The notes beneath the pieces are model-generated. The model worked only from the letters and a program-made list of their open reading frames with translations, was not told where the DNA came from and did not search any database. This document shows positions 15,987 through 31,585 of a stretch of DNA of 64,000 nt, in pieces; the stretch's first letter is position 1; every line of letters begins with the position of its first letter. A program made the translations under genes and the position numbers. The stretch covers positions 1,508,511 to 1,572,510 of the forward strand of contig OZ253457.1 in the NCBI GenBank assembly GCA_965261285.1, given 5' to 3'. This stretch comes from Vicinamibacterales bacterium (lineage in GTDB: Bacteria; Acidobacteriota; Vicinamibacteria; Vicinamibacterales; UBA8438).

Positions 15987-16187
15987 TGCGCCAGCCGGCT
16001 GGCCGGCTGCCAGAGCGGGGCCCACGACTGGCGGGATTCCCTTGCAGCGGGGGTGGTCTCCGGCGTCGCGGCGCGTGACGCTTCACTCGCCGTCCGGACA
16101 GATTGTCGAGCCTCGGTCCCCCAGGGTGTCGTTCCGTCGAGGTTGCGCACCATCGATTCCAGGATGCGGGGGGCGAGCCCCACGAGC

Positions 16188-17210
16188 ATGGCCAGTCTGT
16201 TCTCGCGGCTGTTCCGCTACCGTCCGACCGAGGGTCGGGTTCCCTGGGAGGACCACTTCACCGAGTCCTTCGCGGCGGTCCTCGACCACTACCCCTGGCT
16301 GCGCGCGGCGTATGCCGCCCATCTGATCGGTCGCGACCGCGACCTGAAGACCGTGATCGTCGACACCCAGCGGACCTTCGGCAACGCCCGGCCGGACATG
16401 TGGATCGATGCCCGCGACGCGGACGACGGGCGCCACGTCGTGATGGTCGAGCACAAGATGGGCGCTCCTGCCCGGGGCGGTCAACTGAAGGACTACGAGA
16501 GATGTTTGAAGGTGCTGGCGGCGGAGACGAGAACGCTCGTCCACATCGCTGGTCGCTCTGCGCCGGTTTTCGAAGCGGCGTCCGGCGGTGTGGAGTTCAA
16601 GTCCTTCAGGTGGTTCGAGATCCACCGATGGCTGCGACGCCAGGCCGCGGCCGCTCGGAGCGGCGGGCGGCACCTGGAGTTCGTGAACGAGTTACTGGAG
16701 TTCATGGGGGAGCGGGGCATGACCATCGAGATCGGCATGAACGAGCTCGTGGCCGCAAGGGTCTACAAGGCGGGCGAGGTGGAGGGGCGACTCCAACAGA
16801 TTCTGGACTCGGCATGGGACGACTGCGGGATGGACGAAGTTCTCGGGGAAACCGACGGGCGGGGGCGCACCACGCGCGGTGAGTGGCGGTTGTCGCCGAG
16901 AATGGTCCGCCACAACGTCCACGTAGAATGGGGTTTCGATTTCCGGCGAGAGGATCCCGAGTGGGACGTGAGCAGCCTGCAAGTGCCGTCGGCCTACGCA
17001 GGGATCTGGATGCCCGGCCCGGACGGCGACTGCAGACTGGCCTGCCCGTCGGGCTGGAAGAAGCCGCCGAAAGGGTGGGATGGCGACAGCGGCGGGCGTT
17101 ACGTGTGGGCCTGCGAGATGAGCGAGCTGCGCCTGCACGGAGAGTCGCTGAGTGCGCTGTATCTCGGTTTCTTCACCAAGGCGCTCACCGCGCTCAAGGC
17201 GGTTCTGTAG
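16188..17210 (+). CDS. PD-(D/E)xK nuclease-fold protein (putative)
   Basis: ATG 16188 ('MASLFSRLF'). An N-terminal 'WEDHFTESFAAVL' Glu, 'RPDMWIDARD' and 'HVVMVEHKMGA' give an E...D...ExK arrangement. The C-terminal ~200 aa have no motif I recognise. Confidence 0.5.
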   Translation: MASLFSRLFRYRPTEGRVPWEDHFTESFAAVLDHYPWLRAAYAAHLIGRDRDLKTVIVDTQRTFGNARPDMWIDARDADDGRHVVMVEHKMGAPARGGQLKDYERCLKVLAAETRTLVHIAGRSAPVFEAASGGVEFKSFRWFEIHRWLRRQAAAARSGGRHLEFVNELLEFMGERGMTIEIGMNELVAARVYKAGEVEGRLQQILDSAWDDCGMDEVLGETDGRGRTTRGEWRLSPRMVRHNVHVEWGFDFRREDPEWDVSSLQVPSAYAGIWMPGPDGDCRLACPSGWKKPPKGWDGDSGGRYVWACEMSELRLHGESLSALYLGFFTKALTALKAVL

Positions 17211-17212
17211 CG

Positions 17213-17683
17213 ATGTCGGATCGGGGTGCGGTGGTGAACGACGAGCCATCTCGACGAGAAGTAGAATGTTCCCGTGTCCGACACGCTCGCCAACGTCGAT
17301 TCGCCGCCGCCGCCGAACGGCCGCCCGGCCGCCTCGGGCGAACCCTCGACGCGCGGATCGCGCGGGCGGTTGCGGCCCTGGACGGGGTCGGTACGGTGGC
17401 GCTGTTCGGCTCGCACGCGAGGAACCGGGCGCGCCCGAACAGCGATCTCGACGTCGCCATTCTGCCCGTGACCGTCGACGCGACGTGTCGCCGCCGACTG
17501 GTCTCGCGCGCCGCCGCCGCGCTGGCCGGTCTGGCGCCGGACGGTCGCGTCGACGTCGTGCTCGTCGACGAGGCGCCCGAGCTGCTGCGACAACGCATCT
17601 TCGAGCACGGCCGGGTCGTGATACAGCGCAACCCGAGCGGACTGGCGGGCATGGCGCGTGCGGACGATGCGGGAGCACGGTGA
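17213..17683 (+). CDS. Nucleotidyltransferase-domain protein (MNT/MntA-like antitoxin)
   Basis: 'VALFGSHARNRARPNSDLDVAIL' GS...DxD NTase motif. ATG 17213 lies 2 nt after the upstream stop. The only other in-frame starts are GTG 17231 and 17234. Confidence 0.75.
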   Translation: MSDRGAVVNDEPSRREVECSRVRHARQRRFAAAAERPPGRLGRTLDARIARAVAALDGVGTVALFGSHARNRARPNSDLDVAILPVTVDATCRRRLVSRAAAALAGLAPDGRVDVVLVDEAPELLRQRIFEHGRVVIQRNPSGLAGMARADDAGAR

Positions 17684-17748
17684 CCGCGAGCCCTATCGCC
17701 GCATGCTCCGAAACGCCCAGGCCCGGCGACTCGCGGCGGGGGGAATCG

Positions 17749-18187
17749 GTGGTCGATCGGGACGTGCTCTCGACTCGCTTGAACGCGCTCGAAGGCTATC
17801 TGGCTGATCTGCGCCCGTTCGCGAGACGTTCACGCGACGAGTTCGTGCGCGAGCCCGGTCTGCACCATCTGGCCGAGCGGCTCCTGCACTTGGCGTGCGA
17901 GTGCGTGATCGACATCGCGCACCACATCATCGCCGACGAGGGGTACCGGCAGCCGTCCACCTACCGGGATGCGATTGCGGTGCTCGCGGAGGAGGGCGTC
18001 GTCGATGACGCCCTGGCCGATCGCGTGGCTGCCTGGGTCGGCTTCGCAACGTGCTGGCCCATGCCTATCTCGATATCGACCACGGCCGTTCGTCGATTCC
18101 ATCGAGAGCGATCTCAGCGACCTGGCAGACTTCGCCCAAGCGGTCGCGAAGCTGTTGCCGGATTCGTTCACTCGGCGTGATGCGTGA
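17749..18187 (+). pseudogene. HEPN/DUF86 (HepT-like RNase toxin) gene disrupted by two 1-nt deletions
   Basis: The DUF86-like sequence reads through three frames. Frame 1 gives '...AERLLHLACECVIDIAHHIIADEG...LADRVAAWVGF'. The next frame gives 'RNVLAHAYLDIDHGR', which is the Rx4H motif. The third frame gives 'VDSIESDLSDLADFAQAVAKLL...'. The shifts occur at about 18045 and about 18088. The start is either GTG 17749 or GTG 17680; the latter overlaps the MNT stop. Confidence 0.7.
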
Positions 18188-18891
18188 TGTCAGAAACACC
18201 TGCCCAAGGCAGTCTGCTGTGGTCGGATCCGGGTCTCGCGGAGCGCCGTTACGTGCTGCCGGTCCCGGGAAGCGGCCTGCGATACGTGCCGGATTGGCTG
18301 TCCGAAGAGGACATGCGGCGGTTGGAGAGCGAGTGCGATGCTCTGGTGAGGTCCCCTGACGGCGGCTGGCGGCCCAGGGCCGAGTTCCGACTGTACGGCC
18401 GGAGGATCGTTCGTCCCCGCGACACGGCGTGGATGTCCCAGAATCGTCGTTCGTACTCGTACGGGGGCACGACGGATGAGTCCGTCGGGTGGCCGCACTG
18501 GGTTCGGGATCTCGCCCGCAAGGTCGCGGAACATCCCGCTTGGCGCTTCGCGGAGGCACCGGGTACGGCGCCCAACGTCGCGCTCCTGAACGTCTACCGA
18601 AACGGGCGCGACCACGTCGACTGGCATGCTGACGACGAGCGGGAGATCGACCAGCGGTCTCCCATCGCGTCGGTTTCGCTGGGCGCGGTTCGGACGTTCC
18701 GCATCCGCCGGACGGTGGGGCCCGCGGTCGGCTCTGGCGTTCGGAAGTCGGAACCATTGGCGCTGGGTCCCGGGTCGCTACTCGTCATGCCGCCGGGTTT
18801 CCAGGCCGATTGGGAGCACCGGGTCCCTCCTGCGAAGAACGCCGGTCGTCGCTGGAACCTCACGTTCAGGGTGTACGCTCACCCGTCATGA
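18184..18891 (+). CDS. alkB: AlkB-family Fe(II)/2-oxoglutarate-dependent dioxygenase (nucleic-acid demethylase)
   Basis: 'LLNVYRNGRDHVDWHADDE' (HxD), 'QADWEHRVP' (distal His) and 'RWNLTFRVY' (RxNxTxR). The start (GTG 18184 or ATG 18187) overlaps the HEPN stop. Confidence 0.85.
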   Translation: MMSETPAQGSLLWSDPGLAERRYVLPVPGSGLRYVPDWLSEEDMRRLESECDALVRSPDGGWRPRAEFRLYGRRIVRPRDTAWMSQNRRSYSYGGTTDESVGWPHWVRDLARKVAEHPAWRFAEAPGTAPNVALLNVYRNGRDHVDWHADDEREIDQRSPIASVSLGAVRTFRIRRTVGPAVGSGVRKSEPLALGPGSLLVMPPGFQADWEHRVPPAKNAGRRWNLTFRVYAHPS

Positions 18892-19733
18892 TCTACCCGG
18901 ACCAGCTTCATCTCGCACGTCTTCGCGAGAGTTGCCGGGGTTGGTTCCCGGGCCGCACCGAGACCCAGGTGCGGGAGGCGCTCTTCAGAGAGACGGAGGA
19001 CCTCCGTGGATGGTACCAGTGCATGCTTGAGGGTGATCCGCCGTACCGCCGGGCTCCCCGCGGCTACGTCGCTCTGTACATGCCGCGGGGTTACTTCTGG
19101 TTCAAGAGGTTGGTGAGCGATCACCCACGCCTGCGTGCGGTGGTTTCATCCGCCCGGTCCGTGCTGGTGGTGGGTTGCGGGCCCGCGCCGGAGCTCTGGT
19201 CGTTGTCCCAGTATCTGAGCTCCGAGGCGACCGTCACACTACTGGACGCCGAGATCGACGTCTGGGAGCCGTTCGTGCGGGGATTCACCGTTCCGCTCGT
19301 CGTCGAATCGCGGGGGCTAATGAGCCTGGCTGCCGAGCCTCCGTGGCTGGAATTCCAGGCCGGGACTCACGGGTCCATCGAGGGGCGTTTCGACCTCATC
19401 GTGGCGCAGCAGGTGCTCAACGAGATTGCGGTTCGTCCGGTCTGGTTGAATCCGGGACATGCTTGGCCGCTCACGGCGTTGTCCACGATCACGGCTTGGC
19501 GCCGCAGCCGCCTCCGTCCGGGCGGCGCCATCGTTGTCGTCGACGGCGATTCGAAGGAGCGGCGGCTCCGGCAGATCGAAGAGAACCTTCCCCGCGGGGC
19601 CTGCGAACGGGGCTCCCTGTCTCATGGAACGGTCAGGTGTGCGCGAGAGGTAGCGGCTTGGTTGACCGGCCCGTGGGGTCGTTGCGTGCCCCGCCGGCGT
19701 GCGCCAACGAAGTATCTGTTGGTCTACTGTTGA
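18888..19733 (+). CDS. Class I SAM-dependent methyltransferase-like protein (Rsm22-like motif I)
   Basis: The ATG overlaps the alkB stop (ATGA). 'SVLVVGCGPAPELWSL' (motif I-like), 'VTLLDAE' (acidic motif II-like), 'FDLIVAQQVLNEI' and 'RPGGAIVVVD'. The assignment rests on motif pattern only. Confidence 0.5.
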   Translation: MIYPDQLHLARLRESCRGWFPGRTETQVREALFRETEDLRGWYQCMLEGDPPYRRAPRGYVALYMPRGYFWFKRLVSDHPRLRAVVSSARSVLVVGCGPAPELWSLSQYLSSEATVTLLDAEIDVWEPFVRGFTVPLVVESRGLMSLAAEPPWLEFQAGTHGSIEGRFDLIVAQQVLNEIAVRPVWLNPGHAWPLTALSTITAWRRSRLRPGGAIVVVDGDSKERRLRQIEENLPRGACERGSLSHGTVRCAREVAAWLTGPWGRCVPRRRAPTKYLLVYC

Positions 19734-19913
19734 CGTGCGCGTTCGTGCTCACGACACCCGTATCGCCGGCCTGACGCGCGCCGGGGCGGTCATCGACGAT
19801 GGGCGCGGTGGCGGTAGGGACGAGGGTAGCGCAACGCGAGCCTGGCCCGCCCACATCCTCGCCTTCGGCTCCGCTGGGGACCGCCATGGAAGCGGTCACC
19901 CCGATGCTCGCGG

Positions 19914-21470
19914 TCAAGACCGGTCGGCCGCCTGCCGCTCGCGAGTTGCCTCCGCCTGCGGGCGCGGACGCCACAACTGGTGGATCACCCAATCCAGGTC
20001 CAGACGCTCGCCGCGCCAGTCGGGCGTGAGGGTGTCGGGATCAATCTCTATGCCCTCCCGTTCGAGCCGCGCCCTCACCGGCGCCAACGGCCGACCGGTC
20101 CAATCCGGCGGCGCCGGCGCTTCCGGCAGCGGACGGCCGTCGGGCCGAATGAACTCCACGTCACCGCCTGCATCCAGTATGACGCGGAACCCCTCCTCGT
20201 GAACCGCCCGGTGGTGCCGCCGGCAGAGGAGGACCAGATTGTCGAGCGCCGTCGCCCCGCCGTGGGCCCAGTGCCTGATGTGGTGGGCATCGACCCGGAC
20301 GTTCCGGCACCCCGGAAACCGGCACTGGCGGTCGCGGGCGTGCAGCGCCCGGCGCAGGGCCGGCGAGATGGTCCGCGTGCGGCGGCCGACGTCGAGGACC
20401 TCGCCGCCGGGGCCGTGCTGCATCCCGACCGTGGCCGCGTCGCAGGCCAGCCGCCGCGCCGTCTCCGCCGAGATGTGGATGCCCCCCGCCTCTTCCAGCA
20501 CCGTCTGGCGGCGGCCGGCCGGAGTGTACGCGGCCTGCTGCGGCGACGCGGCCGCCTCCGACGTTCCCGCGGGAACGTGGAGTGCCTCGGGGATGTCGGG
20601 CGCTTCGGTCAGGGCGTCCGCGTCCACGTGCACCACCACCTGATAGCGGTCGCCCGCCGTCCCCCGGTCGAGCCCAACCGACAATGCGCACTCCGCAATC
20701 ACTCCCAGGGCATCCGCCTGCCGCTGCGCCAGCGACGGCGCCTCCGCCTCTGCGCCGGGAACGGTCTCGGCGCCGGGGGCGGCCTCTCCGCCCGCGTCCG
20801 CCGCCGTCGCTTCGGCGCCGCGGGCCTGGTCGCACGCCGCCTCGAGAGCCCGCCGCACGACCGCGCCCACCTCAGGCGACAGCCGGCCCCGAATCACCAC
20901 CATCCCGTCCTCGTCCACCCATGTCCGCAGCGACCGCGTCTCGTGCCGCCGCCGGTCCTCGGTCTGCTCCGCCAGGCGGTCCACCCGCCGCCACGCCCGC
21001 ACGATCTTCTCCACGTGGGCGGCGGTACCCGACAGCGCCACGTTCAGCAGGTCGTCCTCGGTCTCCGGCGTCGCCACCCGCGTGACCGCGCGCATCTTCG
21101 AGTAGGAGACCTTGCCGCGCCGCATGGCGTCGCTCAGCTTCGGCAGGTCGGCGAGGGCGCGCGCCACCCGCACGTGCTCGCGGGCCGCGCCCGGGGCGAG
21201 CCCGGTGCGCCAGCCCAGCCATTCGGCGCAGGACGTGCAGCCGGCCCAGCCGTATCTCTCGTCGAACTGGTGGATCAGGCTCAGCAGCTCCCAGGTGGCG
21301 GCGCTGATGCGGGCGGAGAGCTCGGCGATGCGGTCGCCGAGCGCGACGACCTCGGCCTGGGGACCGTCGGGGCACCAGGGCCGCGGTGCGGGTGGGTCGC
21401 TCTCGGGCACGATGGCGTCCGCAGGATGCAGCGGGGGCGCGGGGACAGCGGGTGTGGCTTCAGGGTGCAT
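19914..21470 (-). CDS. DUF222 + HNH endonuclease protein
   Basis: C-terminal 'CRFPGCRNVRVDAHHIRHWAHGGATALDNLVLLCRRHHRAVHEEGF' HNH motif. The N-terminal region resembles the DUF222 (13E12-repeat-type) architecture common in Actinobacteria. Confidence 0.85.
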   Translation of the reverse strand: MHPEATPAVPAPPLHPADAIVPESDPPAPRPWCPDGPQAEVVALGDRIAELSARISAATWELLSLIHQFDERYGWAGCTSCAEWLGWRTGLAPGAAREHVRVARALADLPKLSDAMRRGKVSYSKMRAVTRVATPETEDDLLNVALSGTAAHVEKIVRAWRRVDRLAEQTEDRRRHETRSLRTWVDEDGMVVIRGRLSPEVGAVVRRALEAACDQARGAEATAADAGGEAAPGAETVPGAEAEAPSLAQRQADALGVIAECALSVGLDRGTAGDRYQVVVHVDADALTEAPDIPEALHVPAGTSEAAASPQQAAYTPAGRRQTVLEEAGGIHISAETARRLACDAATVGMQHGPGGEVLDVGRRTRTISPALRRALHARDRQCRFPGCRNVRVDAHHIRHWAHGGATALDNLVLLCRRHHRAVHEEGFRVILDAGGDVEFIRPDGRPLPEAPAPPDWTGRPLAPVRARLEREGIEIDPDTLTPDWRGERLDLDWVIHQLWRPRPQAEATRERQAADRS

Positions 21471-22113
21471 GTCCCATCGTAACCCCTTGATTCTGAGCGG
21501 TTTGTACTCGCGTCAAACGCCCGAACGGCCCGTAGGGCGGCCGATTTCGGTCTCGCGGTCGGTATCGTCCAGCCTGCGGGTGCTGAGGCCGGTCAGCGGG
21601 CATTCCTGGGGGCGTCCCGGAAATCGAGCGGACTGGCTGCGAAAAGCTGTCAAGCAAGAAGTGCAGGCGGACGAGGCGTTCTTCGAGTGCGGCAAGGGCC
21701 ATCTACGGCGTCGGAACGGAATTGGCCGACGCCTGGGCGGAGGCCCCGCCGGCCGATTCGGACACCGGACGGCTCCGGGCCTTGGTCGTGGCATCACGCA
21801 CCCACGCCGAACGACGCCCGACGCTCGCAAGTGCATAACCGGCTGCGCTATCCGCAGGTCCGCGCCGGGGGCTCGTGCATCTCCTCGGAGCGTCGTCGAG
21901 GCCGGATGCGATCAGTTCGGCGTCCGTCTCGAGCGAGCCCAACGTGCGCTGGGCCGTCGTCGGCGCCATCGCCATCCTCGCCCTTCGTTACTGCTCCTCA
22001 CCGGTCGCTTCGAAGAACTCCTGGGAGCGGGCGAACCGCGAAACGCCGCCGAACGCTCATCTCACCATGATGTCGTGCATCCCATCGACGTGATCCAATT
22101 CCAAAAAATGGGG

Positions 22114-28041: not shown

Positions 28042-29821
28042 ATGCCCGACCATCCCCGCATTCCCTACGGCTGGGCCGATTTCCGGGCCATCCGGCTCGA
28101 AGGCCGGCTGTATGTCGACAAGACGCGGTTCCTCCGCCGGCTGGAGGAGGACCGCTACGTCTTCCTCATCCGGCCCCGGCGTTTCGGCAAGTCGTGCTGG
28201 GTGTCGGTGCTCGAGAACTATTACGACCGCAACCGGGCCGCCGAGTTCGACGCGCTGTTCGGCGGCACCGACGTCGGGCGGCGGCCCACGGACGCCCGCC
28301 ACCGCTACGTGGTCCTGCGCTTCGACTTCTCGGCGTTCGAAGACACCCCCGAGACGTTGCGGGAGCGCTTCGAGACCTACTGCGACACGGTGCTCTACTA
28401 CGCGCTGGAGCGGAACCGGGACCTGTTTCCCGACGCGGCGCGGCGGCGCATCCTGGCGGCGCCCGCCGTGGACGGCAAGCTCAACCAGTTGTTCGCCTAC
28501 GCCGGCGAGCACGACATCCCCATCTACGCGCTCATCGACGAGTACGACAACTTCGCCAACACCATCCTGGCCGGCCACGGCGCGTCCGCGTACGAGGCCT
28601 TCACCCACGGCGGTGGCTTCTACCGGAGTTTCTTCGCCACCCTGAAGAGTGGGGCCGGGCAGGGCGGCGGCCTCGAGCGCCTGTTCGTCACCGGCGTCTC
28701 GCCCGTTACCCTGGACGACGTCACCAGCGGCTTCAACATCGGCAGCAACGTCAGCCTGCATCCGGACTTCAACGAGCTGCTCGGCTTCACCGAGCCCGAG
28801 GTGTTGGGGCTGCTGCGGACGTACCGGGATCACGGCGTGTTCTCGCAGGACATCGACGACGCGATGGGACTGATGCGGGAATGGTACGATGGCTACCGGT
28901 TCGCCAAGAGCGCCGAGACGGACGTCTACAACACCGACATGGTGCTCTACTACCTGAACCAGTCCATGCCGAACCGGCCGGTTCCGGACGATCTCATCGA
29001 CGTCAACGTCCGCGTCGACTACGGCAAGCTGCGCCATCTCCTGGTGGTCGGCCGCCGGCTCAACGGCAACTTCGACCTGCTGCGGCAGGTCATCGGCGAA
29101 GAGACCGTCGATACGTCGATACAGGCGGGCTTCCCGCTTGAACGGATCGACCAGCCCGAGAACTTTCTTTCGCTGCTTACATTACTTCGGCCTGCTGAGC
29201 ATCCGCGGTGTGGTGAACGGGACGCCGCGGCTCGCCATCCCCAATCAGACCGTCCGGCGGCTCCTGTACAGCTATCTGCGCGAGGGCTACCGCGACGTGG
29301 ACGTGTTCTCGGTCGATCTGCTCACCTGCGAGCGGCTGCTGCGCGCGATGGCGAACGACGGTGCCTGGCGGCCGGTCGCGGCGTTCCTGCGCGACGCCGT
29401 CGCCGCTCAGACCGGGATTCGCGACTACATGAGCGGCGAGAAGGTGATCCAGGGGTTTCTCGCCGCCTACCTCGGCGTGACCGATCACTTCGTGTTCCGC
29501 TCGGAGGCCGAGCTCGGCAAGGGCCTTGCCGACATCTGCCTGGAGCCCCTCGTCGCCCGCTATCCACACCTGCGTCACGGCTACCTGATCGAGCTCAAGT
29601 ACCTGAAGCGGAGCGAGGGGGGCGGCGAGAGCCGGGTCGCGGCGGCGGTCGGAGAGGCGGCCGCCCAGTTGCGGCGCTACCTTGCGGACGAACGCTTGGC
29701 GCGCCAGTATCCCGGAGTGCAGTTCACCGGCCTGGCGATGGTGTTCCACGGGTGGGAGATGGTGGCCTGCGAGGCGGCTGGTGACGGGGCCGCCGGTGAA
29801 TCGGACGGACGTGGCCGATGA
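28042..29821 (+). pseudogene. AAA-ATPase-like (PF09820-type) + PDDEXK_9 protein gene, frameshifted
   Basis: N-terminus 'IPYGWADFRAIRLEGRLYVDKTRFLRRLEE..YVFLIRPRRFGKS' is typical of 'predicted AAA-ATPase' proteins. The reading frame changes at about 29179: '...ENFLSLL' continues as 'HYFGLLSIRG...' in track ORF 29138..29821, which carries the C-terminal 'DICLEP...GYLIELKYLK' PD-(D/E)xK-like end. Confidence 0.7.
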
Positions 29822-30055: not shown

Positions 30056-31585
30056 ATGATCGAAACCGACGGGGAGATGCCGACGTCGCGGCCCGCCGGC
30101 TACGCGGCCCTGGTCGAGCGCTACGGCGTCGAGGTCGTTCCCCACTGGCGCACGTCGCGGGTCGCGACCCGCGGGGGGCGGCGCGTCGAGTCCGGGGCGG
30201 ACGAGGTGGTCGAGGTGTTCCCGCCTCGCTACTGGCCCGGCGACACCGCGGGGGAACAGCTCGAGTTCGCGCTCAAGCACGACGGGACGAACCTCGGCAT
30301 CCTCGCGAGCCTGTTCCGGGTGATGCCCGAGGACGAGCTGCTGGCCTACGTCGGGTCCCGGCCGACGGGCAAGTACGCGAGGCGGCTGTGGTTCCTCTAC
30401 GAGCTCCTGACGGGCCGGCGGCTCCTGCTCGACGACCTGAAGCAGGGCAACTACGTCGAGGTGCTGGAGCCGGATGCCTACTACACCATCGGACCCGCCC
30501 GTCGGAGCCGCCGCCACCGCGTCAACGACAATCTCCTCGGAGACCGGCAATTCTGTCCCACGATCCGCCGCACGGACATCCTGCGGGGCTTCGAGGCGGC
30601 CGACCTGCCCTCGCGCTGCCGGCGCATCGCAGCGCGCTACGCGCCGGCGCTGTTGAGGCGCGCCCTCGGCTACCTGTACGCCAGGGAGACGAAGTCGTCG
30701 TTCGCGATCGAGCACGTCACGCCCACGTCGACCCGGGCGGAGCGGTTCGCGGCGCTGCTGCGGCTCGCGCATCGGGAAGACTTCTGCGACCGGCCGCGCC
30801 TCGTCGAGCTGCAGAACCGCATCGTCGACGCCCGTTTCCGCGACGCCGACTACCGGCGGAGCCAGAACTACGTCGGGGAGACGGTCGGGTGGCAACACGA
30901 ACGCATTCATTTCGTCGCCCCGAGGCCCGAGGACCTCGGCGACCTGATGGAGGGGCTGGTGGCCGCCCATCGACGCATGGCGTCAGGAGACGCGCCGGCC
31001 GTGATTCACGCCGCCGCGGTCGCCTGGGGGTTCGTCTTTCTGCACCCGTTCGAGGACGGCAACGGCCGCATCCACCGCTTCCTCATTCACAACATCCTGG
31101 CCCGGCGCGGCTTCACGCCCGCGGGCGTCATGGCGCCGGTCTCGGCCACCATGCTGAAGCACGCGGCCGACTACGACGCGTCGCTGGAAGCGTTCGCGCG
31201 CCGGTTGATGCCGCTGGTCGATTACACGCTCGACGCCGACGGCCGCCTGACCGTGCACAACGATACGGCGCTCTGGTACCGCTACATCGACATGACGGAC
31301 CAGGCGGAGGCGCTCTTCCGCTTCCTCGACCTGACCATCGATACCGAGCTGGCCGGCGAACTGGCGTTCCTGACCCGGTACGACGCGGCCAAGCGGGCGA
31401 TTCAGGCGATCGTGGACATGCCCGACCGCCGGATCGATCTCTTCATTCGCTTGTGCCTCCAGAACGACGGCCGTCTCCCGGCACGGAGACGCGCGAGGCA
31501 CTTCGACCGCCTGTCGGATGAAGAGGTCGCGGCGATGGAACGGGCCGTGCTGTCTGCCCAGGGCGACGATTCTACGGTCGTCTGA
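30056..31585 (+). CDS. Fic/DOC-family protein (putative AMPylase)
   Basis: 'FLHPFEDGNGRIHRFLIHNIL' matches the Fic HxFx(D/E)GNGRxxR motif. An upstream 'ETKSSFAIEH' resembles the (S/T)xxxE(G/N) inhibitory motif but has His at the last position. Confidence 0.85.
   Translation: MIETDGEMPTSRPAGYAALVERYGVEVVPHWRTSRVATRGGRRVESGADEVVEVFPPRYWPGDTAGEQLEFALKHDGTNLGILASLFRVMPEDELLAYVGSRPTGKYARRLWFLYELLTGRRLLLDDLKQGNYVEVLEPDAYYTIGPARRSRRHRVNDNLLGDRQFCPTIRRTDILRGFEAADLPSRCRRIAARYAPALLRRALGYLYARETKSSFAIEHVTPTSTRAERFAALLRLAHREDFCDRPRLVELQNRIVDARFRDADYRRSQNYVGETVGWQHERIHFVAPRPEDLGDLMEGLVAAHRRMASGDAPAVIHAAAVAWGFVFLHPFEDGNGRIHRFLIHNILARRGFTPAGVMAPVSATMLKHAADYDASLEAFARRLMPLVDYTLDADGRLTVHNDTALWYRYIDMTDQAEALFRFLDLTIDTELAGELAFLTRYDAAKRAIQAIVDMPDRRIDLFIRLCLQNDGRLPARRRARHFDRLSDEEVAAMERAVLSAQGDDSTVV

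What the first reader, a model, noticed from the sequence alone, without database searches (positions are those of the whole stretch)
18040..18095. The HEPN toxin gene is broken by two separate 1-nt deletions flanking its Rx4H catalytic motif
The DUF86/HepT-like sequence can only be read by changing frame twice within about 45 nt.
- '...AAWVGF' ends at 18045.
- 'RNVLAHAYLDIDHGR' reads in the next frame. One C appears lost from an expected ttC-Cgc junction.
- 'VDSIESDLSDLADFAQAVAKLL' reads in the third frame after about 18088.

The upstream MNT partner and all neighbouring genes are intact. The motif itself is preserved at the amino-acid level between the two shifts. This suggests a recent inactivation of a toxic RNase while the rest of the array is kept. 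Less likely, it reflects localised assembly errors.
Basis: seen in the sequence. Interest (0 to 1): 0.55.

Follow-up and report, generated by a model that had tools for sequence, protein, structure and literature searches.

The report
Decayed HepT/MntA toxin-antitoxin gene pair
A small toxin-antitoxin gene pair in a soil Acidobacteria genome has been knocked out by four single-base frameshifts, two in the toxin gene as reported and two in its supposedly intact antitoxin partner, which makes it an ordinary decaying pseudogene pair.

Summary
hepT (window 17749-18187, +) reads in three frames. Alignment with intact relatives at 93-96% protein identity places two 1-nt deletions. One lies in TT(T/C)|CGC at 18043-18045, just before the R of RX4HXY. 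The other removes the A of a Tyr codon between 18093 and 18094.

Repaired, the protein matches the HepT profiles end to end. As encoded, the match stops at about profile position 86-90 of 120, before the catalytic motif.

The upstream mntA antitoxin is not intact. It carries a -1 shift near 17342 and a +1 "A" at 17636, so its native start and conserved C-terminus are out of frame with the nucleotidyltransferase core.

About 10 kb of neighbouring coding sequence shows no uncompensated frameshift against the same relatives.

An independent metagenome scaffold (L012) carries the same first hepT deletion. Its near-identical sister (L008) carries a different hepT frameshift. L005 has lost the hepT 3' end.

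Low pN/pS shows the loss is recent.

The window comes from a 6.7-Mb contig, which I infer is a long-read assembly. The three indels unique to it could be consensus errors, and only reads can settle that.

This is a degraded type VII TA module of ordinary interest.

The parts
17749..18187 (+). hepT pseudogene (type VII TA toxin, HEPN/DUF86 RNase). GTG start at 17749, stop TGA at 18185-18187. It can only be read in three frames.
   Evidence: The repaired product scores 112 bits against NF047751 (cutoff 60) and matches PF01934 over 2-120 of 120.
18043..18045 (+). First hepT frameshift. One base is missing from the ancestral TT(T/C)|CGC, the only T-run in the gene. It lies immediately 5' of the Arg codon of RX4HXY.
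   Evidence: The identical deletion is present in the independent scaffold L012. Homopolymer census.
18045..18068 (+). Codons for RNVLAHAY, the RX4HXY catalytic and AMPylation-site motif. They are intact but lie in the intermediate frame, so translation from the hepT start cannot reach them.
   Evidence: Motif definition from PMC7641770.
18093..18094 (+). Second hepT frameshift. The A of the ancestral TAC (Tyr) codon is missing between these two bases. The context is not a homopolymer, and the deletion is seen only in this window.
17274..17807 (+). mntA pseudogene (antitoxin adenylyltransferase), from the native GTG start shared with L003 and L008 to the native stop TGA at 17805-17807, which lies 58 nt inside hepT. 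It is broken by two frameshifts.
17342..17343 (+). mntA net -1 frameshift in the variable N-terminal region. The exact base is ambiguous within about 17300-17345. Translation from GTG 17274 stops at 17469-17471.
   Evidence: versus L008 and L003.
17636..17636 (+). mntA +1 insertion (A in CCCG[A]GCGG). It puts the conserved C-terminal segment ADWRAWRVRTMREHGDREPYRRMLRNAQARRL out of frame. It is absent from the seven relatives aligned and from L012.
   Evidence: NCBIfam MntA scores 59.1 bits over 7-86 of 106 as encoded and 69.9 bits over 7-106 of 106 when repaired.
17213..17683 (+). The 156-aa ORF that carries the MNT core and looks like an intact antitoxin gene. This exact product is in the protein collection for the source contig.
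   Evidence: P0191, on the 6,697,426-bp contig only.
17408..17452 (+). Codons for GSHARNRARPNSDLD, the GSX10DXD nucleotidyltransferase motif of MntA.
   Evidence: Motif definition from PMC7641770.
17262..17267 (+). TAGAAT, a possible -10 element 6 nt upstream of the native GTG start, shared with L008; L003 has the variant TAGGAT. A leaderless transcript is an inference only.
   Evidence: Sequence. The consensus promoter scan found nothing.
18164..22081 (.). Roughly 3.9-kb insertion at the last codons of hepT. It is absent from L001, L003 and L007, and its left junction is shared by L008 and L012. It carries an AlkB-like 2OG-Fe(II) oxygenase (18184-18891), an unknown ORF (18810-19733) and a DUF222+HNH gene (19914-21470, minus strand). 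It changes the HepT C-terminus from PDA* to PDSFTRRDA*.

Best explanation
This is a chromosomal class I HepT/MntA (type VII) toxin-antitoxin module that has recently become a pseudogene pair in this Vicinamibacterales genome.

In the working system, as established for the family, HepT is a HEPN RNase whose RX4H motif cleaves mRNA. MntA neutralises it by oligo-AMPylating the Tyr of RX4HXY through its GSX10DXD nucleotidyltransferase site.

In this window, a 1-nt deletion just before the Arg codon takes the whole RX4HXY motif out of frame. Translation from the hepT start gives a 143-aa product without the catalytic Arg/His or the modified Tyr, so no RNase is expected (inferred). A second 1-nt deletion 48 nt downstream, together with a -1 and a +1 shift in mntA, shows that the antitoxin has also lost constraint.

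The likely order is toxin first, then antitoxin. The sister genomes L008 and L012 have a dead hepT with an intact mntA.

Inferred: loss of activity, the order of events, and that the three window-unique indels are biological rather than consensus errors.
For: - Frames and profile matches are.
- L012 is an independent ENA scaffold, 96.8% identical to the window and syntenic with it. It has the same GGCTTCGC deletion, embedded in L008-type SNPs at -30 and +31 nt.
- Other independent hepT lesions occur in relatives. L008, a MEGAHIT MAG, has a frameshift at the gene's only G4 run. L005 has lost the 3' part after codon 103. L013 has the G4 frameshift. P0001 has a C-terminal shift.
- mntA is intact in all of these except the window.
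- In about 10 kb of flanking coding sequence compared with L001, L003, L007 and L008, indels are multiples of 3 or compensated within a few nt. One unresolved 1-nt difference vs L008 at 19123 lies in the ORF downstream of the AlkB-like gene. 1-nt indels otherwise occur only in intergenic DNA and in this module.
- If indels fell uniformly, the chance that all four land in 0.9 of 10.9 kb is about 5e-5.
- A codon-bias Viterbi scan of the whole window finds only one other frame break.
- pN/pS of the repaired genes is 0.10-0.30 for hepT and 0.19-0.25 for mntA, as between intact alleles. Neutral evolution since the window/L012 split is rejected (2 nonsynonymous vs 7 synonymous, p about 0.001).
Against: - The window lies on a 6,697,426-bp contig. 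I infer from that size that it is a long-read MAG, where residual 1-nt consensus errors occur.
- Three of the four indels (17342, 17636, 18093) are seen only here. No other sequence in the protein collection shares the resulting products.
- The window branch has only 16 derived substitutions, 11 of them synonymous, against 4 indels. That indel-to-substitution ratio is much higher than ordinary neutral decay predicts: P of about 0.014 for 3 or more extra indels if about 0.5 are expected.
- Another lone frameshift exists at about 29.18 kb.
Confidence: 0.75

Rival explanations
1. Some or all of the indels are consensus or basecalling errors of a long-read metagenome assembly. In the organism, the module is then either intact or carries only the first hepT deletion.
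For: - The source contig is 6.7 Mb, which I take to indicate long-read assembly.
- Three indels are unique to the window.
- There is an excess of indels over substitutions on the window branch.
- A further isolated frameshift lies in the AAA-ATPase/PDDEXK_9 gene at about 29.18 kb.
- Variable loci with co-occurring strain alleles, as L008 and L012 suggest, are places where polishing can go wrong. This last point is inference.
Against: - The first deletion is reproduced in an independent scaffold of a different strain.
- Three of the four indels are not in homopolymers.
- Apart from one unresolved 1-nt difference vs L008 at 19123, there is no uncompensated frameshift in about 10 kb of neighbouring coding sequence compared with four relatives, and long ORFs of 800-995 aa elsewhere are intact.
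- Random errors would not cluster four-fold in 0.9 kb.
Confidence: 0.2
2. The frameshifts are bypassed during expression by programmed ribosomal frameshifting or transcriptional slippage, so a full-length HepT is still made.
For: The RX4HXY codons are perfectly preserved between the two shifts.
Against: - Two separate -1 recoding events would be needed within 48 nt.
- Neither site has an X XXY YYZ slippery heptamer or a long homopolymer (sequence).
- The shifts are absent from six relatives with ordinary single-frame genes, so they are not a conserved recoding feature.
- Motif preservation is explained by recency.
Confidence: 0.01
3. hepT is switched off, and possibly on again, by slippage at short homopolymers. 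This would be a phase-variation-like or hotspot-driven, selection-favoured silencing that recurs in the population.
For: - The same T3-run deletion occurs in the window and in L012 on different backgrounds.
- The same G4-run deletion occurs in L008 and L013.
- These are the only T-run and the longest run in the gene.
- L008 and L012 differ by 3 mismatches in 1155 nt. Two of them are nonsynonymous hepT changes, and each genome has its own frameshift.
Against: - Runs of 3-4 nt are far shorter than known contingency tracts.
- L013 is a 7x long-read contig, so its G-run deletion may be an error.
- The window's second hepT deletion and both mntA indels are not in runs.
- No reversion event is documented.
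Confidence: 0.04

Closest known systems
Shewanella oneidensis HepT/MntA (SO_3166/SO_3165), class I HEPN/MNT type VII toxin-antitoxin system (Yao et al. 2020, PMC7641770)
   Same: - Gene order is the same, with mntA upstream and overlapping hepT.
- HepT belongs to PF01934 and carries RX4HXY (RNVLAHAY).
- MntA carries GSX10DXD (GSHARNRARPNSDLD).
- The repaired proteins pass the NCBIfam equivalog cutoffs for HepT_toxin and MntA_antitoxin.
   Different: Both genes here are frameshifted, twice each, so neither the native toxin nor the native antitoxin can be translated. The C-terminus of hepT has been replaced by an inserted island. No activity has been tested.
Intact orthologous modules in Vicinamibacterales MAGs (L001 OZ220718.1, L003 JAJEEA010000393.1, L007 CBDEVO010000003.1)
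   Same: They sit in the same chromosomal neighbourhood (window 9.6-16.0 kb and 22.1-27.5 kb), with 88-92% nucleotide identity over the module and 93-96% HepT protein identity.
   Different: They have single-frame mntA and hepT. They lack the 18164-22081 island and the ORF at 16.0-17.2 kb.
Fused MNT-HEPN toxin-antitoxin systems (Nucleic Acids Res 2026, PMC13000451)
   Same: The relative L002 has lost one G at the 3' end of mntA, which joins mntA and hepT into one ORF. That resembles the fused architecture named in the paper's title.
   Different: This concerns a relative, not the window. The window's genes are separate and broken. I read only the paper's title and abstract.

Membership tests
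Class I HepT/MntA type VII toxin-antitoxin system | The toxin belongs to the HepT/DUF86 HEPN family (PF01934; NCBIfam NF047751). | tested here: met
The product as encoded still hits at 73.8 bits but only over profile positions 2-90.
Class I HepT/MntA type VII toxin-antitoxin system | The toxin carries the RX4HXY motif: catalytic Arg and His, plus the Tyr that receives AMP. | tested here: met
   RNVLAHAY is encoded at 18045-18068. The motif is defined in PMC7641770. The feature is met for the ancestral reading only; see the next row.
Class I HepT/MntA type VII toxin-antitoxin system | The toxin is translatable as one ORF that includes the catalytic motif. | tested here: not met
   The motif lies in a different frame from the start codon. 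The single-frame product reads ...AAWVGFATCWPMPIS... and lacks the motif.
Class I HepT/MntA type VII toxin-antitoxin system | The antitoxin is a minimal nucleotidyltransferase (PF01909/PF18765; NCBIfam NF047752) with GSX10DXD. | tested here: met
   PF18765 scores 48.5 bits and PF01909 scores 32.3 bits. The motif is at 17408-17452. Repaired MntA scores 69.9 bits against a cutoff of 60.
Class I HepT/MntA type VII toxin-antitoxin system | The antitoxin ORF is intact from its native start to its native stop. | tested here: not met
   There is a net -1 shift before the core and a +1 at 17636. The ORF as encoded scores 59.1 bits, below the cutoff of 60, and covers profile positions 7-86 of 106.
Class I HepT/MntA type VII toxin-antitoxin system | The two genes are adjacent on the same strand, with the antitoxin upstream. 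| tested here: met
   The native mntA reading spans 17274-17807 and overlaps hepT, which spans 17749-18187.
Class I HepT/MntA type VII toxin-antitoxin system | HepT is toxic through RNase activity, and MntA neutralises it by oligo-AMPylation. | not testable with these tools
   This needs expression of the repaired and native alleles and mass spectrometry of HepT.

The most novel reading that the evidence does not exclude
In this Vicinamibacterales lineage, hepT is being silenced repeatedly and independently. The same two short homopolymers, the gene's only T-run just before RX4H and its only G4 run, are hit in different strain backgrounds. Near-identical strains (L008 and L012) carry different knock-outs plus extra nonsynonymous changes. 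All three genomes that acquired the AlkB-like/HNH island at the 3' end of hepT have a dead toxin. This could reflect positive selection for toxin loss, or a crude on/off switch, triggered by the island insertion, rather than passive decay.
Probability: 0.12. Interest if true: 0.5.

Novelty: new member of a known kind. Interest (0 to 1): 0.25.

Why it matters
The main value is for annotation. hepT should be flagged as a pseudogene. The 156-aa 'MntA' ORF that appears in the protein collection for this contig (P0191) should not be taken as an intact antitoxin.

The comparative picture gives a small natural example of toxin-first decay of a type VII TA module. Several closely related soil genomes each carry a different hepT lesion while mntA mostly survives.

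It also shows how to separate real frameshifts from long-read consensus errors without reads. The test is whether 1-nt indels, compared with relatives, are confined to one module and to intergenic DNA.

It opens no long-standing question.

Tried and rejected
- Source contig: exact-protein look-ups by the look-up of encoding contigs failed three times. Only listing of cluster members showed that the window's proteins lie on a 6,697,426-bp NCBI/ENA contig.
- JGI metagenome contigs: a gapped exact-pattern scan able to catch any allele combination at the two hepT sites found nothing. The close relatives appear to be only in ENA/NCBI data, so I did not use the second scan.
- Paralogous HepT/MntA copies in the window, which could have confused polishing or formed an 'array': none found by tblastn.
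- Sigma-70 consensus promoter scan of 16900-18400: no hit. The TAGAAT upstream of the native start remains an inference.
- Programmed frameshifting: rejected on sequence grounds. There are no slippery heptamers, and the shifts are not conserved in relatives.
- Inheritance of the first deletion from a common pseudogene ancestor of the window and L012: rejected. L008, 99.6% identical to L012, lacks it, and the window-L012 divergence is dominated by synonymous changes.
- A targeted link between L005's DUF222-HNH gene and hepT: dropped. In L005 the truncated hepT is followed by an amidase, as in L013, and the HNH gene lies about 3 kb further on.

Full report
**Observation**

The window is 71.7% G+C. 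Between 17749 and 18187 on the + strand, a HepT-like sequence can be followed only by changing frame twice.
- '...DRVAAWVGF' ends at 18045 in the frame with codon starts at pos mod 3 = 1.
- 'RNVLAHAYLDIDHGRS' occupies 18045-18092 in the mod-0 frame.
- 'DSIESDLSDLADFAQAVAKLLPDSFTRRDA*' runs from 18095 to the stop at 18185-18187 in the mod-2 frame.

The composite matches Pfam HepT-like (PF01934) over positions 2-120 of 120 at 101.6 bits. It scores 112 bits against the NCBIfam equivalog HepT_toxin (NF047751, cutoff 60). The product as actually encoded matches only profile positions 2-86 (Pfam) or 2-90 (NCBIfam), at 58.3 and 73.8 bits. So the break is real relative to the family and not a normal single-frame variant.

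**Exact lesions**

A scan of GTDB representative genomes found the same module in Vicinamibacterales (Acidobacteriota) MAGs at 93-96% protein identity. DNA alignment and BLAST gap listings against L008, L003, L001 and L007 give exactly two single-base gaps in the window's hepT.
- One base is missing from GGC-TT(T/C)-CGC at 18043-18045. Most relatives, including the closest, have TTT-CGC; L001 has TTC-CGC.
- The A of CGT-TCG-TAC-GAT is missing between 18093 and 18094.

The ancestral peptide is ...WVGF RNVLAHAY LDIDHGRSYDSIES....

**The antitoxin is not intact**

The same alignments applied upstream show two more uncompensated indels in mntA.
- There is a net -1 shift between the native GTG start at 17274 and the nucleotidyltransferase core. 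L003 and L008 share this start and read from it in frame. The shift is best placed after 17342, but the N-terminal region is variable.
- A +1 'A' at 17636 (CCCG[A]GCGG) is absent from the seven relatives aligned and from L012.

Translation from the native start stops at 17469-17471. The core, with GSHARNRARPNSDLD at 17408-17452, sits in another frame. The conserved C-terminal segment ADWRAWRVRTMREHGDREPYRRMLRNAQARRL is back in the first frame.

An ORF from ATG 17213 to 17683 (156 aa) happens to cover the core. This exact product is in the protein collection for the source contig (P0191), which is why the gene looks intact. It scores 59.1 bits against NCBIfam MntA_antitoxin (cutoff 60) over profile positions 7-86 of 106. 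The repaired protein scores 69.9 bits over 7-106.

**Real mutation or assembly error?**

The window's proteins lie on a 6,697,426-bp NCBI/ENA contig. I infer from that size that it is a long-read MAG, so error is a serious rival.

Evidence that the lesions are real:
- L012 is an independent 1154-bp ENA scaffold, 96.8% identical to the window and syntenic into the downstream gene. It carries exactly the same first hepT deletion. It lacks the second hepT deletion and the mntA insertion.
- In L012 the deletion is flanked at -30 and +31 nt by SNPs of the L008 type, so it is not a chimeric join.
- In roughly 10 kb of neighbouring coding sequence shared with L001, L003, L007 and L008, indels are multiples of three or compensated within a few bases. 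One unresolved 1-nt difference vs L008 at 19123 lies in the ORF downstream of the AlkB-like gene. 1-nt indels otherwise occur only in intergenic DNA and in this module. Under a uniform rate, four of four falling in 0.9 of 10.9 kb has probability about 5e-5.
- A codon-bias Viterbi segmentation of the whole window flags only one other same-strand frame break, at about 29.18 kb. ORFs of 800-995 aa are intact.
- Three of the four indels are not in homopolymers.

Evidence that some may be errors:
- The indels at 17342, 17636 and 18093/94 are unique to this assembly.
- The window branch has only 16 derived substitutions in the module, 11 of them synonymous, against four indels. This ratio is higher than ordinary neutral decay predicts.

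I put about 0.75 on genuine pseudogenisation of the module. I put about 0.2 on part of it being consensus error. The first deletion is very likely real, and it alone removes RX4HXY from the reading frame.

**Recency and the comparative pattern**

With the frames repaired, pN/pS between the window and relatives is 0.10-0.30 for hepT and 0.19-0.25 for mntA (excluding the more distant L004). These values match those between intact alleles. Neutral evolution since the window/L012 split is rejected, with 2 nonsynonymous versus 7 synonymous differences (p about 0.001). The inactivation is therefore recent.

States of the module in related genomes:

| Locus | Assembly | hepT | mntA |
|---|---|---|---|
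| L001, L002, L003, L007 | mixed | intact | intact in L001, L003, L007; fused to hepT in L002 |
| L004, L006 (more distant) | – | intact | intact |
| L008 | MEGAHIT | frameshift at the gene's only G4 run | intact |
| L012 (99.6% identical to L008) | ENA scaffold | T-run deletion | intact over the part covered |
| L013 | 7x long-read contig | G4-run deletion | intact |
| L005 | 7.4-Mb chromosome assembly | lost after codon 103 | intact |
| P0001 | ENA | C-terminal shift | not examined |
| window | 6.7-Mb contig | two frameshifts | two frameshifts |

Among the loci where mntA was examined, it is broken only in the window. In L002, loss of one G fuses it to hepT. This asymmetry fits toxin-first decay. 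L008 and L012 differ by three mismatches in 1155 nt, and two of them are nonsynonymous hepT changes.

**Context**

The module is chromosomal. L001, L003 and L007 share the flanks at window 9.6-16.0 kb and 22.1-27.5 kb. Relative to them the window has two extra segments.
- One is an ORF of unknown function at 16.0-17.2 kb.
- The other is a roughly 3.9-kb island at 18164-22081, inserted at the last codons of hepT. It carries an AlkB-like 2OG-Fe(II) oxygenase whose start overlaps the hepT stop, an unknown ORF, and a DUF222+HNH gene.

L008 and L012 share the island's left junction. The three island-bearing genomes are exactly the ones in this chromosomal neighbourhood with a frameshifted hepT. The island changes the HepT C-terminus from PDA* to PDSFTRRDA*, which lies outside the Pfam domain. 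There is no second HepT/MntA copy in the window and no 'array'. The other neighbours I examined in 9.6-27.6 kb are intact ORFs.

**Mechanism**

By homology with S. oneidensis HepT/MntA (PMC7641770), the ancestral module encoded an RX4H RNase. A GSX10DXD adenylyltransferase neutralised it by adding AMPs to the Tyr of RX4HXY. Both motifs are present at codon level here.

In the window, the catalytic Arg, His and Tyr codons cannot be reached from the hepT start. The native mntA reading is also interrupted. The module should therefore be inert; this is an inference, not a test.

Programmed frameshifting is very unlikely. It would need two events in 48 nt, there are no slippery sites, and the shifts are not conserved in relatives.

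**Verdict**

This is a degraded member of a well-known TA family, of modest interest. The recurrent hepT hits in sister strains are the only unusual aspect. Read-level data are needed for the three window-unique indels.

Noticed in passing
window 28042-29821 (+), break near 29175-29181: A gene with AAA-ATPase_like (PF09820) and PDDEXK_9 (PF08011) domains needs one frame change, at ctgctt-a-cattacttcggc, to be read through. It is the only other frame break found in the 64-kb window. It lies in a segment (about 27.5-31.8 kb, together with a Fic-domain gene at 30056-31585) that is absent from L007.
   Followed up: partly
L002 5575-6423 (WTFV01000121.1): In this SPAdes MAG the G-run at the 3' end of mntA is one G shorter. 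As a result mntA and hepT form a single ORF (METSAGG...RRLAAGGSVVDRDV...LLPDA*). This is a natural MNT-HEPN fusion resembling the fused systems named in the title of PMC13000451.
   Followed up: partly
window 18164-22081: A roughly 3.9-kb island is inserted at the last codons of hepT. It carries an AlkB-like 2OG-Fe(II) oxygenase (its start overlaps the hepT stop), an unknown 307-aa ORF, and a DUF222+HNH endonuclease gene on the minus strand. A second, similar copy (same 90%-identity protein cluster) of the DUF222+HNH protein lies elsewhere on the same 6.7-Mb contig. The island is absent from L001, L003 and L007, and its left junction is shared with L008 and L012.
   Followed up: partly
window 16024-17203 (ORF 16188-17210, +): A 340-aa ORF with no Pfam hit sits directly upstream of mntA. 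It is absent from L001, L003, L007 and mostly from L008. Its stop lies 2 nt before the ATG of the 156-aa 'MntA' ORF, so read-through expression of the truncated MNT core is conceivable.
   Followed up: no
window 17749-17807 and all related loci: The native mntA reading frame ends at a TGA 58 nt inside hepT in every relative. This is an unusually long antitoxin-toxin overlap.
   Followed up: no
L008 6001-6440 versus L012 282-721: These two assemblies are 99.6% identical but carry different hepT frameshifts, at the G4 run and the T-run respectively. Two of their three mismatches are nonsynonymous hepT changes in L008 (R10H, E51K).
   Followed up: partly
window 17274-17807 versus 17749-18187: Synonymous divergence among relatives is two to three times higher in mntA (pS 0.16-0.34) than in hepT (pS 0.05-0.16). 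This hints at different histories or recombination for the two halves of the module.
   Followed up: no
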